Shown: one piece after another, positions 53,832 to 57,541 of the stretch
Numbering within the stretch: the stretch's first letter is position 1
Layout of the letters: the number at the start of each line of letters is the position of its first letter
DNA from: Alphaproteobacteria bacterium
GTDB lineage: Bacteria > Pseudomonadota > Alphaproteobacteria > SHVV01
Reading direction: 5' to 3'
DNA length: 64,000 nt
Assembly (NCBI GenBank): GCA_965261735.1
Contig: OZ253470.1
Location: 2,848,001 to 2,912,000, forward strand
Made by a program: the position numbers and the translations under genes
Notes under the pieces: model-generated
The model's input: the letters and a program-made list of their open reading frames with translations, nothing else
The model's database searches: none
Told to the model about the DNA's origin: nothing

Positions 53832-55125
53832 ATGGACGCGACGATACACCAGCTACACCCAGTCTTGCCATTCGGGCACTACCTTCGTCTTGGTCACACT
53901 GGGCACAGGAAGCTCGAGGATCTCCATGCGTCGGGCCGATTCGGGATCGACCGCGTGGTGGTTGACGCGGCTCATATCGACGATCAGAGGGAACTTCTGG
54001 ATTCTTTACGAAGTTCAGGAACGGAGATCATCCTCGACCCGAAAGTAGCTGAATTGTCAACGCCTTTTGGTTGTCTCAGCCGAGCAAGTGTATTGCCTTG
54101 GGCGCACGGGGAGGCGCCCTAGTGGCCGAGCAATTCGATCAAGCTAGGATTTGTGACATGGCAGAACGTATTGCCGAGTTCGCGATCGAGCGCCGTGTCG
54201 ATGTGGTTTTAGCGCCGACCCGTCTTCTCGACGAGGGTCCGAAGGACAAGTGGCTGGCGATCGATATTGAGACTTGCCAGGCACTGAGGACATCGCTTGA
54301 TGAGCTGGGTGCGAAGGCTGTTTCGGTCGACTATCCGCTTCTCACACCTATCAGACATTGCTTGACGTTGCAGCCCGGAGGGCTTTGATCTCGCAAATCA
54401 AAGACTTGCCGTTTGACCACCTCTGGCTAAGGATAGCCAATTTTGGATCTGACAAGTCAGCTGCAGGCGTGCGCAAATATATTGACGCCGTGCGAGACCT
54501 TCATGAAATCGGTCGGGCGATTATTGCCGATGGCGTTGGTGGCTTGCCGGCGCTCGGAATAGTCGCTTTCGGCGCCGCGGGTGGTATTTGCCATGGCGTC
54601 GCCGAGAAGGAGCGATTTTATCCTAGCTATTGGCGGCGGCCGCGAGATTCTGGCGGCGGCGGACCAGCGACGCGCATCTATTTCGATCTGCTAGATGCCT
54701 ACCTAAACGTGGGCAACGCGAGAACTCTCCTCGCTACCCGCAGCGCAAAACCCTTGCTGGGATGTCGCGACACGGGGTGCTGCCCTGATGGCTGGGAGGA
54801 TACGATCTTAAACCCAAGGAGACACTATTTGATACGGACGACACGCAGGGTACAAGCGTTGGGTCGAGTTCCGGATTCGCGCCGCGAAGACCATTTCTTG
54901 TCAAAGCAGCTGGCCCCGGTCGACCGCGCCGCCAGAACAGCCACGCGGCTCAAGGTCCCCAACAAACAGATACTTGAAAGACTCTCGCGAATCAGCCGCA
55001 AGACAGACGAGATGCGCCGCGTGCTCGAGGAGCTACACGTGACCGATCACAACCGCCCACGCTCTCGCATCCCGGAGAAAAGAGCTGATCAGTGGCGTCT
55101 GGAAGCGTCGACGGGTGCGAGCTGA
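53832..55125 (+). pseudogene. Uncharacterised ~430-aa protein (possible TIM barrel with C-terminal Cys/His cluster), two frameshifts
   Basis: ORFs 53832-54122, 54071-54388 and 54358-55125 join after single-base shifts near 54110 and 54345; RBS present; ends 4 nt before the antitoxin start. Confidence 0.7.
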
Positions 55126-55129
55126 GCGC

Positions 55130-55468
55130 ATGAGCAACGCGATTTCGAAGACGATCGAGGACCTGAAAGATCGCGGCGGTCTCAAGAATGTAGACGTCGC
55201 GAATATCATGAATGTCTCGAAGGCGACCATCACGAGATGGTCTGCCGGATCACACTCGCCGCAACCGAAGGCGCAGCTCGTTTTGTCTGATCTGCGCTAC
55301 GTAGTCGATAAGCTCGGCGAATTCTACGCGGCCGACGAGATAAGATTCTGGCTCAACTCGCGCAACGAGCTGCTGGACGGCCAACGCGCAATCGATCTGA
55401 TTCATAGTGGCCACACCGAGGTCGTCCTGGAGGCGATCGAACGCTTTGGCGACACCGCATACATCTAG
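55130..55468 (+). CDS. Xre/MbcA/ParS-type antitoxin (HTH plus DUF2384-like domain)
   Basis: DVANIMNVSKATITRW helix-turn-helix; WLNSRNELLDGQRAIDLI C-terminal motif; precedes a RES gene. Confidence 0.9.
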   Translation: MSNAISKTIEDLKDRGGLKNVDVANIMNVSKATITRWSAGSHSPQPKAQLVLSDLRYVVDKLGEFYAADEIRFWLNSRNELLDGQRAIDLIHSGHTEVVLEAIERFGDTAYI

Positions 55469-55627
55469 CAACTCAGATCGTGTCCGACGCTCGCGTTCAC
55501 GACCCGGACCTGCTCGATGCCCTGGAGGCGCTGGAGCCTCAACCGATGGGATGGACGCCCCTCCCGACGGCATCGCGATGTGCCAGGTTGGCGGTGTTGT
55601 TAACGCCAAGCGAGGAAGGGGGCGTCC

Positions 55628-56650
55628 ATGGAACAGGTTCACATGATCGGGATCGATCTGGCGAAGAACAGCTTTCAGCTGCACGGTGCGCGGGCGGATG
55701 GGTCGGTTGCGTTCCGCAAGAAGCTGAGCCGGGCGAAGCTGTTGGACTTTGTGGCTGCGCAGCCACGCTGCACGGTGGCGATGGAGGCGTGCGGCGGCGC
55801 GCACCATTGGGGCCGGGAGATCGGCAGTCTCGGCCATGCGGTGCGACTGGTCCCACCGATCTACGTCAAAGCGTACGTCAAGCGGCAAAAGAACGACGCG
55901 TCGGATGCGGAGGCGATCTGCGAGGCGTCGTCGCGGCCGACCATGCGCTTTGTGGCTGTGAAGACGGAGGAACAGCAGGCTCGGGGCATGCTGTTCCGGA
56001 CGCGCGATCTTCTGGTGCGCCAGCGCACCCAGACGATTAATGCGCTGCGCGGCCATCTGGCGGAGTTCGGTGTCATTGCCCCGCAGGGGCCGGCTCATGT
56101 CGGCCGGCTGGCCTCGGCGCTTGAGGGACCGGCTTCGAGGTTGCCGGAAGCGGTCCGCGAGCTGGCCGGCCTTCTGCTTGAGCAGATCGCCGGCCTCGAT
56201 GCGAAGATTGCGGGCCTGGAGAGGGAGGTCCACGTGAGAGCACGGCAGGATGAGGAGGCGAGGCGCCTGATGAGCGTGCCGGGGATCGGGCCGATCAGCG
56301 CGATGGCAATCCAGGCCTTCGCACCGCCGATGGAGAGTTTCCGGCGCGGCCGCGACTTCTCCGCTTGGCTCGGCCTCGTGCCGCGCCAGCACACGACCGG
56401 CGGCAAGCCGAAGCTGGGCAAGATATCGAAGATGGGCCAGCGCGATCTGAGACGGCTGCTGATCACAGGCGCGATGACTGTGGTCCGCTGGGCGGTTCGG
56501 CGCGGCGTGACGACGGACCCCTGGCTGGCCGGGATGCTGGCGCGCAAGCCGAGGATGCTCGTCGCGGTGGCGCTGGCCAACAGGATGGCGCGCATCGTCT
56601 GGGCGCTACTGACGAAGAAGGAGAGCTACCGGGCTCCCGCCACCGCCTGA
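55628..56650 (+). CDS. IS110-family DEDD recombinase/transposase
   Basis: IGIDLAK, MEACG, KNDASDAEAI, VPGIG, AWLGLVPRQHTTGGK, VALANRMARI. Confidence 0.96.
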   Translation: MEQVHMIGIDLAKNSFQLHGARADGSVAFRKKLSRAKLLDFVAAQPRCTVAMEACGGAHHWGREIGSLGHAVRLVPPIYVKAYVKRQKNDASDAEAICEASSRPTMRFVAVKTEEQQARGMLFRTRDLLVRQRTQTINALRGHLAEFGVIAPQGPAHVGRLASALEGPASRLPEAVRELAGLLLEQIAGLDAKIAGLEREVHVRARQDEEARRLMSVPGIGPISAMAIQAFAPPMESFRRGRDFSAWLGLVPRQHTTGGKPKLGKISKMGQRDLRRLLITGAMTVVRWAVRRGVTTDPWLAGMLARKPRMLVAVALANRMARIVWALLTKKESYRAPATA

Positions 56651-56689
56651 GAGAACGGCGAAGTGCGGGAAGCCGTCGGGGATGTGGGC

Positions 56690-56870
56690 ACGACGGAGGA
56701 CAGGTAAGGGCAAAGGTCAACGAGACCGGGTTGGGAAAACCAGCATCCGAACGGAGAGCTTTCAAGCTCGCGTAACCGATTTGGACCCAATCCGCGTATC
56801 TCCATACGGGCCCGCGGCGTGTCATCTGCCGCATAGAGAGGCCGGACACACGACAGCACCTGACCGCATG
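56690..56870 (+). ncRNA. Candidate bridge RNA / seekRNA (boundaries approximate)
   Basis: Two stem-loop modules in the IS 3' end, with loop segments matching the target site (CGAACG, AACCG) and the donor end (ACACACG). Confidence 0.7.
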
Positions 56871-57541
56871 CACCGAGCCGACCAAAAACTGCTTGCATCA
56901 ACGGGGGCGTCCACACACGTTCGATGGCGTGGTGTGGCGGGTTAGTTGGACAAACCGGGATCCCTTGGCTGGTGGAACCGGCGGTGGTCGATGGCACCCC
57001 CCGAACGACTTCGAAGCGCTGTACACAAGCTTGGACGAAAACGGGGCGCTGGCCGAAATCTACTACCACCTCTCCAAGGCTCCGGTGTTCTCGTCATCGA
57101 ACGTCACCATAAACAAGCTGCACGTGCGCGCGGAGCGGACCCTGGTGTTCGACGATATCGAGGCCCTTACGCAGGTTGGCGTCGACGAAGAAGCGTTCCG
57201 CAGAGGCGACCACTCACGGACCCAAGCAGTTGGCGCCGCGGCTCGTTTCCTGGACATGGAGGGCCTGATCGTGCTGAGTGCCAGATGGTCATGTGCCAAT
57301 CTGATCCTTTTCCTGGACCGCATGCCTGATCTTGAAGCACTGGAGGTGTTGTCAACGAAGGACGTGAACTGGCCAGCATGGCGTGAGAATACGGCGACCG
57401 CCGATTGAAGACGACCAGCGACCAGAAACCGAATGAGACGGGGCGCGGACGGTTCTAACATTGGGACTTATACCTGCTACTTGACAAGATCGCTTTCCCT
57501 TGACCCACCACGCCCGGCGGGCGTCGGGTGCGGCGACGGTA

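What the first reader, a model, noticed from the sequence alone, without database searches (positions are those of the whole stretch)
56651..56919. Bridge/seekRNA guides readable in the IS1111 3' end and matching this very insertion site
Seen: the empty target is CCTCAAC-CG-TTCGATG. Within stem CGGGTTGGG/CCCAATCCG, loop segment CGAACG (56748-56753) matches the bottom strand and AACCG (56774-56778) the top strand, either side of hairpin GAGCTT/AAGCTC. A second module has ACACACG (56846-56852) identical to the IS right end plus core, and TCCATACG (56801-56808), one base out of register with the left end, around GGCC/GCGGC stems. Known: IS110/IS1111 recombinases are guided by such RNAs. Inference: a complete programmable recombinase with a CG core and predicted target about AAC-CG-TTCG.
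Basis: partly seen in the sequence, partly recalled or inferred. Interest (0 to 1): 0.7.

Follow-up and report, generated by a model that had tools for sequence, protein, structure and literature searches.

The report
IS1111 insertion sequence with guide RNA
The stretch after the transposase gene of this jumping gene encodes the folded guide RNA that tells the enzyme where to insert, a mechanism described in 2024, so this is a clear natural example of a known system.

Summary
Window 55544-56919 is an intact IS1111-group insertion sequence with a CG core at both ends. It sits in codon 22/23 of a RES toxin gene. Its 269-nt 3' non-coding region holds a two-module seekRNA/bridge RNA.

In this one copy they are not beyond chance (P about 0.06-0.2). 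The proof comes from comparison.
- 14 near-identical copies in the same genome share AAC-CG (11 of 14) on the left and TTCG (7 of 14) on the right.
- Two resident sister elements, about 80% identical, have other targets, and both target-loop guides and the donor guide are changed to match.
- Across 41 related guide families, cognate guide/target matches of 6 nt or more occur in 27 (right) and 34 (left). In non-cognate pairs the figures are 3.2% and 0.8%.
- The donor guide equals right end plus core in 62 of 67 loci.

Refinements: the left guide is longer (GCGUAAC-CG). Right-side pairing is often absent. The proposed left-end guide is supported only as CCAU; its "ACG" does not follow the core. 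Expression was not shown. The scan has noted such RNAs before on other DNA.

The parts
55115..55468 (+). Xre/ParS-type antitoxin gene upstream of the interrupted toxin gene (context, not part of the IS)
   Evidence: PF09722 E = 1.8e-4, 21.9 bits, below the curated cut-off of 24.5. The ORF is listed.
55480..55545 (+). First 22 codons of the interrupted RES toxin gene. They end in the left target AAC (55541-55543) and the core CG.
   Evidence: ORF. The frame continues at 56920 once the IS is removed.
55544..55545 (+). Left copy of the CG core dinucleotide
   Evidence: CG stands at both junctions in all 14 copies. In relatives the same position holds CG or TG at both ends.
55546..55561 (+). Left end: 6-nt extension ATGGGA, then subterminal inverted repeat TGGACGCCCC (55552-55561)
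   Evidence: Read. The other 13 copies have ATGGGG, which makes the repeat 11 bp.
55628..56650 (+). Transposase/recombinase gene, 340 aa, with motif GLVPRQHTTG
   Evidence: PF01548 (1.7e-15) and PF02371 (3.8e-22). NF033542, 321 bits. Translation.
56698..56877 (+). Conserved seekRNA/bridge-RNA region: two modules closed by a basal stem (56708-56711 with 56856-56860). The RNA ends are not known.
   Evidence: Alignment A1 of 44 distinct relatives. Consensus structure of 30 pairs, 98.8% of cells paired against 26-41% when slid.
56728..56793 (+). Target-binding module. Stem 56728-56735 with 56786-56793, plus CC 56740-56741 with GG 56783-84, enclosing an internal loop with the central hairpin 56756-56759/56766-56769.
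   Evidence: 4 of the 8 stem pairs and 2 of the 4 hairpin pairs show changes on both sides.
56744..56754 (+). Right-target guide CAUCCGAACGG. It is complementary to the top strand C-CG-TTCGG(ATG).
   Evidence: It changes with the target in sister elements: CGTGGTACA for TG-TACCACG, GGGTCA for TG-ACCC. Cognate matches of 6 nt or more in 27 of 41 families against 38 of 1182 non-cognate pairs.
56770..56780 (+). Left-target guide GCGUAAC plus core CG (56770-56778), same sense as the top strand, followed by AU (= the first two bases of the left end)
   Evidence: Left flanks of 12 distinct sites: -1 C 12/12, -2 A 11/12, -3 A 12/12, -4 T or C 10/12, -5 G 10/12. Cognate matches of 6 nt or more in 34 of 41 families against 9 of 1182.
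56802..56805 (+). CCAU in the 5' strand of the second module, complementary to the invariant left-end ATGG. Candidate guide for the left end.
   Evidence: CCAT is invariant in A1. Of the 23 left-end types listed, 22 start with ATGG and one with AGGG. Covariation is therefore not testable, and the flanking bases do not covary with the left end or the core.
56809..56843 (+). Stems of the donor module: GGCC 56809-56812 with 56840-56843, GCGGC 56814-56818 with GCCGC 56828-56832
   Evidence: 99.4-99.5% of cells paired. Mostly invariant; one pair has compensatory changes.
56846..56853 (+). Donor guide ACACACGA = last 5 bases of the right end + core CG + first base of the left end (circle junction)
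   Evidence: Exact 7-nt match of right end plus core in 62 of 67 loci with 12 end types. Non-cognate match in 1 of 119. The sister element has ACAGATGA with end CCACAGA-TG.
56893..56898 (+). TTGCAT, a -35-like hexamer. After a 17-nt spacer it would meet CACGAT, which forms only at the circle junction (inferred junction promoter).
   Evidence: GCTTGCAT is conserved in most relatives. No complete sigma-70-like promoter in the linear element. Inference only.
56904..56919 (+). Right end: subterminal inverted repeat GGGGCGTCCA (56904-56913), extension CACA, core CG (56918-56919)
56920..57408 (+). Remainder of the RES toxin gene. It begins with the right target TTCG.
   Evidence: PF08808 E = 4.8e-19, profile 2-148 of 157.

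Best explanation
Window 55544-56919 is an intact member of the IS1111 group of the IS110 family. Its 340-aa DEDD recombinase is guided by an RNA encoded in the 3' non-coding region, about 56698-56877. The RNA has two internal-loop modules inside a common basal stem.

In the first module, CAUCCGAACGG (56744-56754) pairs with the top strand of core plus right target (C-CG-TTCGG). GCGUAAC-CG (56770-56778) pairs with the bottom strand of left target plus core. The two lie either side of a small hairpin. The top-strand-complementary segment comes first, as described for IS1111 seekRNAs.

In the second module, ACACACGA (56846-56853) pairs with the bottom strand of right end plus core at the circle junction. 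CCAU (56802-56805) probably pairs with the left end ATGG.

Recombination at the shared CG core inserts the circularised element between AAC-CG and TTCG without duplication beyond the core. Here it split a RES toxin gene.

Shown here: the anatomy, the conserved structure, and the guide/target and guide/end covariation. Inferred: transcription, binding to the enzyme, the circular intermediate and the chemistry. These are taken from ISEc11/ISKpn4/ISPa11 and IS621.
For: Protein: PF01548 and PF02371; NF033542 'IS110 family RNA-guided transposase', 321 bits against a cut-off of 140.

Same-genome copies: there are 14 full copies at 99-100% identity, and their guide segments are identical. The left flank is AAC-CG in 11 of 14 copies and AGC-CG in 3 of 14. 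The right flank is TTCG in 7 of 14. Genome-wide, AAC precedes a CG with probability 0.0073 and TTCG follows one with probability 0.0037.

Natural retargeting in the same genome: element L015-L018 has target GCAAAAA-TG-TACCACG, guides CGTGGTACA and GCAAAAATG, and donor guide ACAGATGA for end CCACAGA-TG. L019 has target CAAAAT-TG-ACCC with guides GGGTCA and CAAAATTG.

Relatives: 67 loci in 41 guide families. A right-target match of 6 nt or more occurs in 43 of 67 loci (27 of 41 families). A left-target match of 6 nt or more occurs in 58 of 67 loci (34 of 41 families). Non-cognate pairs with the same core give 38 of 1182 and 9 of 1182.

Donor guide: it equals right end plus core in 62 of 67 loci with 12 end types; non-cognate 1 of 119.

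Structure: 30 pairs, 98.8% of cells paired, 7 pairs with changes on both sides. 0 of 500 shuffles reach the covariation score. Slid controls pair in 26-41% of cells.

Literature: the order of the guides and the position of the non-coding region fit PMC11187229, sections 6 and 9. PMC11208160 predicts bridge RNAs in the right end of 93% of IS1111 elements (passages).

Other samples: contigs follow the element to 56923, that is through TTCG, and only then diverge. The next base is G in the three consensus ends listed.
Against: No direct evidence that the RNA is made. The runs laid are contigs, which show neither strand, ends nor level, and DNA may be present in RNA libraries.

No Rfam family matched. 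The single-sequence fold is not more stable than shuffles, and the matches in this copy alone are at chance level.

Right-target pairing is absent in register in 8 of 14 copies. At least one of these is a simple insertion: the two ThiF halves are contiguous. So the right guide is not strictly required, or it pairs differently.

The left-end guide cannot be tested, because both partners are invariant.

The window copy carries a G-to-A change at the inner edge of its left inverted repeat, seen in no other copy. The effect of this change is unknown.
Confidence: 0.9

Rival explanations
1. Only the first module is a functional guide, a short seekRNA like the 82-nt form of ISEc11. The second module (56795-56860) would not be a donor-binding loop but a scaffold, a processing signal or a protein-binding element. 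The ends would be recognised by the protein through the subterminal inverted repeats.
For: In PMC11187229, section 10, the 82-nt seekRNA alone moved a mini-IS, and more efficiently than the long form. IS1111 elements have long subterminal repeats that a protein could read. CCAU/ATGG is invariant and the bases after it do not covary with the core.
Against: The 3' strand of the second module copies the last 5 bases of the right end plus the core in 62 of 67 loci across 12 end types. Non-cognate pairs match in 1 of 119. This includes the CG-to-TG core change in the sister element. Such coupling is hard to explain without pairing. PMC11208160 also colours donor loops in IS1111 bridge RNAs (legend of Fig. 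6d).
Confidence: 0.08
2. The short matches are coincidence. The recombinase protein chooses the target, and the 3' region is an ordinary structured untranslated tail.
For: In the single copy the matches are at chance level and the fold is not unusually stable. The right half of the target is unmatched in 8 of 14 copies.
Against: The guide segments change with the target in sister elements and in 41 families, while the surrounding scaffold stays conserved. The stems are kept by compensatory changes.
Confidence: 0.02

Closest known systems
seekRNAs of IS1111-family elements ISEc11, ISKpn4, ISPa11 and ISPst6 (Siddiquee et al. 2024, PMC11187229; sections 6, 8, 9, 10, 13 read)
   Same: Transposase of 330-350 aa with a GL-P----S/TG motif. 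Subterminal inverted repeats. Long non-coding region downstream of tnp. [quoted passage not shown] Natural retargeting between close relatives, as for ISEc11/ISXne4.
   Different: I could not align this element with those sequences, because none was at hand. Here the target is short and the left side dominates (AAC-CG nearly fixed, right side often unmatched). The element has spread into at least 12 unrelated sites, whereas ISPa11 and ISKpn4 each have one repeated target (a REP, an attC site). A second, donor-matching module is strongly supported by comparison. That paper showed the short target module alone to be sufficient.
IS621 bridge RNA (Durrant et al. 2024, PMC11208160, passages; Hiraizumi et al. 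2024, PMC11208158, passages)
   Same: Two pseudo-symmetric internal loops, one for the target and one for the donor. Each has one guide for the bottom strand of the left side plus core and one for the top strand of the right side. A shared core dinucleotide occurs in target, donor and guides. The left target guide is 7 + 2 nt. The right donor guide of IS621 is discontinuous, with flipped-out bases, which recalls the out-of-register CCAU-A-CG here.
   Different: In IS621 the RNA lies in the left end, upstream of the gene, with the left guide 5' of the right guide. Here it lies in the right end and the order is reversed. The core is CT in IS621 and CG (TG in sister elements) here. Handshake guides could not be identified here.

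Membership tests
IS1111 group of the IS110 family | DEDD (RuvC-like) N-terminal domain plus PF02371 C-terminal domain | tested here: met
   PF01548 1.7e-15 and PF02371 3.8e-22. NF033542, 321 bits against a cut-off of 140.
IS1111 group of the IS110 family | Transposase of 330-350 aa with GL-P----S(T)G motif (criteria from PMC11187229, section 6) | tested here: met
   340 aa; GLVPRQHTTG read in the translation.
IS1111 group of the IS110 family | Subterminal inverted repeats with short terminal extensions | tested here: met
   TGGACGCCCC at 55552-55561 and GGGGCGTCCA at 56904-56913, with 6-nt and 4-nt extensions before the core. The repeat is 11 bp in the other 13 copies. The same layout is seen in 70 of 78 related loci.
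IS1111 group of the IS110 family | Longer non-coding region downstream of tnp | tested here: met
   269 nt downstream (56651-56919) against 82 nt upstream (55546-55627).
IS1111 group of the IS110 family | Sequence-specific insertion with no duplication beyond a shared core | tested here: met
   CG at both junctions of 14 copies; AAC-CG in 11 of 14. The RES frame is restored by removing the element and one CG.
IS1111 group of the IS110 family | Circular intermediate with a junction promoter | not testable with these tools
   There is only a conserved -35-like TTGCAT at 56893-56898, and a weak -10-like CACGAT would form at the junction. No circle joint appears among the contigs laid (which cannot exclude one).
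seekRNA / bridge RNA | Conserved secondary structure with guide-bearing internal loops | tested here: met
   30 pairs, 98.8% paired, 7 pairs with double changes; slid controls 26-41%.
seekRNA / bridge RNA | Two target guides matching opposite strands and overlapping at the core, which covary with the target among relatives | tested here: met
   27 of 41 and 34 of 41 families against 3.2% and 0.8% of non-cognate pairs.
seekRNA / bridge RNA | Donor guides matching the right end plus core and the left end | tested here: inconclusive
Right-end guide met: 62 of 67. The left-end guide CCAU/ATGG is invariant on both sides, so it is untestable.
seekRNA / bridge RNA | The RNA is transcribed, processed and bound by the recombinase | not testable with these tools
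   Contigs from three RNA libraries of two studies cover 56578-56865. Contigs show no strand, ends or level, and DNA carry-over cannot be excluded.
seekRNA / bridge RNA | Changing the guides changes the target | not testable with these tools
   Only natural retargeting was seen.
Any Rfam 15 family | Match at or above the gathering score | tested here: not met
   The only hit is naRNA4 inside the tnp gene, at 22.3 bits against a gathering score of 59.5, E = 0.3.

The most novel reading that the evidence does not exclude
In this clade, targeting rests almost wholly on the left guide plus core (about 5-9 nt, with U.G wobble tolerated at -4) and a T at +2. Right-guide pairing would be dispensable. 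That makes this a naturally relaxed, left-side-driven bridge recombinase able to colonise many unrelated genes. It also keeps a true donor-binding loop, which published IS1111 experiments did not require.
Probability: 0.4. Interest if true: 0.45.

Novelty: new member of a known kind. Interest (0 to 1): 0.3.

Why it matters
It adds no new mechanism. It is, however, an unusually well-controlled natural example. One genome holds 14 identical guide RNAs with 12-13 independent sites, which amounts to a natural specificity profile. The same genome also holds two sister elements retargeted in all guide segments, core included. This supports a donor-binding loop in IS1111-type RNAs, for which published experiments are thin. 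It also suggests that the right target guide tolerates mismatch, which bears on off-target behaviour when such enzymes are used as tools. For annotation, it shows that the RES toxin gene here is inactivated by the element.

Tried and rejected
- Rfam scan of 55400-57100 at E up to 1: only a sub-threshold naRNA4 hit inside tnp.
- Single-sequence fold of 56651-56919: z = -1.54, not informative.
- Sigma-70 promoter scan of 55300-57100: 0 sites. The two terminator-like sites are unrelated to the RNA.
- A first parser that required a perfect hairpin failed for most loci. It was replaced by alignment columns.
- Empty sites for the copies with an unmatched right flank were sought in relatives with 400 nt of left flank (30 genomes besides the window's own) and with the N-terminal half-protein (20 genomes besides the window's own). 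Only the window's own genome matched, so no empty site was obtained.
- Search of solved-structure sequences with the N-terminal half at L003: no match. The C-terminal half matches S9 peptidases from about chain residue 374 of 604. That fits one gene across the junction but does not prove it.
- Pfam on the half-frames of nine copies: only L007 gave contiguous halves of one family (ThiF, profile 1-58 and 71-207). L003, L004 and L008 gave a domain on one side only. L006, L009, L011, L012 and L014 gave nothing.
- Public runs: all four runs laid are contigs, and none covers the flanks 55300-55485 or 56974-57150. This particular insertion, and possibly this organism, is therefore not shown in those runs. 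Cover of the element in RNA libraries is not proof of transcription.
- A single contig of run X1 skips 56744-56837; it was not interpreted.
- PMC13626964 was searched for IS1111 and seekRNA: reference-list entries only.
- The element was not compared with ISfinder, which is not at hand, so I cannot say whether it already has a name.

Full report
**What is in the sequence.** The element runs from the CG at 55544-55545 to the CG at 56918-56919. Its parts, in order:
- a 6-nt extension ATGGGA;
- a subterminal inverted repeat TGGACGCCCC (55552-55561);
- a 340-aa ORF (55628-56650);
- a 269-nt non-coding region;
- the repeat partner GGGGCGTCCA (56904-56913);
- CACA and the core.

The ORF matches PF01548 and PF02371. 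It also matches NCBIfam NF033542, 'IS110 family RNA-guided transposase', at 321 bits against a cut-off of 140. It carries GLVPRQHTTG, the GL-P----S/TG motif named in PMC11187229 section 6.

The element splits a RES-domain toxin gene. The N-terminal 22 codons lie at 55480-55545. The remainder from 56920 matches PF08808 positions 2-148. Upstream lies an Xre/ParS-type antitoxin gene (PF09722, below the curated cut-off). Removing the element and one CG gives one open frame across the junction.

**The observation.** On this copy alone they are not significant. Matches of 5, 6 and 7 nt to the 16-nt target are no more frequent than in shuffles (P = 0.11, 0.17, 0.22). The 8-nt donor match has P = 0.06. 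The single-sequence fold has z = -1.54, and no Rfam family matches. The case rests on comparison.

**Copies in the same genome.** The genome is one contig of 5.03 Mb. It holds 14 full copies at 99-100% identity, five copies of relatives at 80-82%, and truncated copies. The guide segments are identical in all 14; the few differences lie elsewhere.

The left flank is AAC-CG in 11 of 14 copies. It is AGC-CG in the other 3, which share one repeated flank. The right flank is TTCG in 7 of 14, GTTCG in 2, and unrelated in 5. Genome-wide, AAC precedes a CG with probability 0.0073 and TTCG follows one with probability 0.0037.

Over 12 distinct left flanks, agreement with the RNA segment GCGUAAC (56770-56776) is:

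| Position | Guide base | Agreement |
|---|---|---|
| -1 | C | 12/12 |
| -2 | A | 11/12 |
| -3 | A | 12/12 |
| -4 | U | T 5, C 5 (a U could pair with A or wobble with G on the bottom strand) |
| -5 | G | 10/12 |
| -6 | C | 7/12 |
| -7 | G | 2/12 |

Over 13 distinct right flanks, +2 is T in 11, but +1 is T in only 5. Eight of the 14 copies have no contiguous right-target match in register.

At least one of these eight is a plain insertion. At L007 (CGCAAC-CG-GTTCGTC) the two half-frames match ThiF profile positions 1-58 and 71-207. At L003 a frame of 167 + 467 aa spans the junction. Its C-terminal half matches the S9 peptidase family and solved S9 peptidases, which suggests the same. The left guide plus core therefore dominates, and the right guide is often unmatched.

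There are 32 unoccupied AACCGTTCG sites against 33 expected from base composition. There are no TAACCGTTCG sites against 5.7 expected, by a crude expectation.

| Element | Target | Target-loop guides | Right end and donor guide |
|---|---|---|---|
| L015-L018 | GCAAAAA-TG-TACCACG | CGTGGTACA and GCAAAAATG | end CCACAGA-TG, guide ACAGATGA |
| L019 | CAAAAT-TG-ACCC | GGGTCA and CAAAATTG | end CCACAGA-TG, guide ACAGATGA |

The change of core from CG to TG appears in both target guides and in the donor guide.

**Relatives elsewhere.** A scan of genome contigs returned 78 loci. The records are mostly titled as MAGs of Alphaproteobacteria, Binatia and Longimicrobiales. In 70 of the 78, both inverted repeats were found with the same layout: core, 6 nt, repeat ... 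repeat, 4 nt, core. Eight lacked a recognisable right repeat within the locus.

With three own-genome elements added, this gave 73 loci and 51 distinct non-coding regions. I dropped six loci whose ends were mis-assigned or which lacked the scaffold: L048, L075, L076, L081, L092 and L098. That left 67 loci in 41 guide families.

| Longest exact match of at least 6 nt, covering... | Loci | Families | Non-cognate pairs, same core |
|---|---|---|---|
| the first two right-target bases | 43 of 67 | 27 of 41 | 38 of 1182 |
| the core and left target | 58 of 67 | 34 of 41 | 9 of 1182 |
| both | 36 of 67 | not counted | 3 of 1182 |

The 3' strand of the second module contains the last five bases of the right end plus the core exactly in 62 of 67 loci, across 12 end types. 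Non-cognate guide/end types match in 1 of 119. The five misses are three loci whose right junction reads CA instead of CG, one similar case, and one single mismatch.

The 5' strand always contains CCAT, and the left end starts with ATGG in 22 of the 23 left-end types listed, so nothing can covary. Positions 5-6 of the left end vary without matching changes in the RNA. The bases after CCAT (ACGG, ACAG, GAGG, AGGG, ACCG) do not follow the core. In IS621 the right donor guide is also discontinuous, with two flipped-out bases (PMC11208158, passage), so a bulged pairing is not excluded.

**Structure.** Alignment A1 holds 44 distinct sequences of 56698-56877 and its homologues. It gives a consensus of 30 pairs in 7 helices:
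- a basal stem (56708-56711 with 56856-56860);
- a small hairpin (56716-56718 with 56724-56726);
- the target-module stem (56728-56735 with 56786-56793, and 56740-56741 with 56783-56784);
- the central hairpin (56756-56759 with 56766-56769);
- the donor-module stems (56809-56812 with 56840-56843, and 56814-56818 with 56828-56832).

98.8% of cells pair, and 7 pairs have changes on both sides (41 cells). No shuffle of 500 reaches the covariation score. Sliding the partner by 1-3 columns drops pairing to 26-41%. The donor-module stems are nearly invariant, so they are supported by conservation more than by covariation.

**Mechanism.** The top-strand-complementary guide lies 5' of the bottom-strand one, which is the order reported for IS1111 seekRNAs and the reverse of IS110 (PMC11187229 abstract and section 9). 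As in IS621, the left guides read the bottom strand including the core and the right guides read the top strand (PMC11208158). I therefore read the RNA as a bridge/seek RNA. It holds the target (AAC-CG-TTCG) and the circle junction (CACACA-CG-ATGG) together for exchange at the core.

Three further points are inference only.
- The conserved AU after the core in 56779-56780 equals the first two bases of the left end. It may pair with the product junction.
- A -35-like TTGCAT (56893-56898) is conserved. With a 17-nt spacer it would face CACGAT, which exists only at the circle junction.
- The scan found no complete promoter in the linear element. In this copy, transcription could also come from the interrupted operon upstream.

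**Expression.** 20 public runs hold the element or a part of it, six of them RNA libraries. I laid three RNA runs from two studies and one other run. All are contigs. They cover most of the element, including 56578-56865, but none covers its flanks here. That shows the element, not this insertion, in those samples. It does not show transcription.

One point is useful. Contigs in three of those runs follow the window through 56923 (TTCG) and then diverge, and the next base is G in each consensus listed. One contig enters at 55541 (AAC-CG) preceded by ...GT. These are further sites that fit the guides.

**Known or new.** The mechanism was published in 2024 (PMC11187229; PMC11208160, which predicts bridge RNAs in the right end of 93% of IS1111 elements). 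Earlier notes of this scan describe the same kind of RNA on other DNA. This is a new member of a known kind. Whether the element has an ISfinder name was not checked.

**Verdict.** Interest is modest. The value lies in the natural specificity profile and in the comparative support for a donor loop in IS1111-type RNAs.

Noticed in passing
L032:1-2420 and L059/L103 (related loci, not the window): Some relatives are inserted inside the guide-RNA gene of another family member, and their own guides spell that site. The flanks of L032 joined across the core equal 122 nt of the non-coding region of L060 (site GGGCAAA-CG-GTCAATCG, between the basal stem and the first hairpin). The flanks of L059 and L103 equal 41 nt of the donor module of L085 (GAGGC-CG-GACATACG).
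   Followed up: partly
L092 and L098 (related loci): The donor module of one element is interrupted at GGC-CG by the left end (ATGGAGTGGACGCC...) of another copy. This is the same kind of nested insertion seen from the other side.
   Followed up: no
own genome, 37 places listed (only 56699-56874 lies in the window): A profile of the guide-RNA region finds 37 places in the 5.03-Mb genome. 16 are of this element's type, two of them in truncated copies that keep the RNA region (L020, L022). Five are of the sister types, four more are strong hits, and 12 are weaker hits of about 128 nt from a more distant lineage. Two of the weaker hits lie only 378 nt apart (genome 2943799 and 2944177).
   Followed up: partly
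L015-L018 (own genome): The sister element sits in a repeat of about 40 nt on the left and at least 30 nt on the right. Its right-hand part occurs only four times in the genome, and all four are occupied. No empty AAAAATGTACC site remains.
   Followed up: partly
window 55115-57408: The element inactivates the RES toxin gene of an Xre/ParS-RES toxin-antitoxin pair after codon 22, leaving the antitoxin gene intact.
   Followed up: partly
window 55551: This copy alone has A instead of G at element position 8. That shortens its left subterminal inverted repeat from 11 to 10 bp. The effect on mobility is unknown.
   Followed up: no
L043-L045 and L105 (related loci): The right junction reads CA where the left junction and the donor guide read CG. 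In L043-L045 the right-target guide also carries the complement of CA. The meaning of this apparent split core was not worked out.
   Followed up: no
own genome 3.60-3.64 Mb (L006, L012, L013, L014): Four copies lie within 35 kb. Three share the same left flank and two share both flanks, so this region has been duplicated or rearranged after insertion.
   Followed up: no
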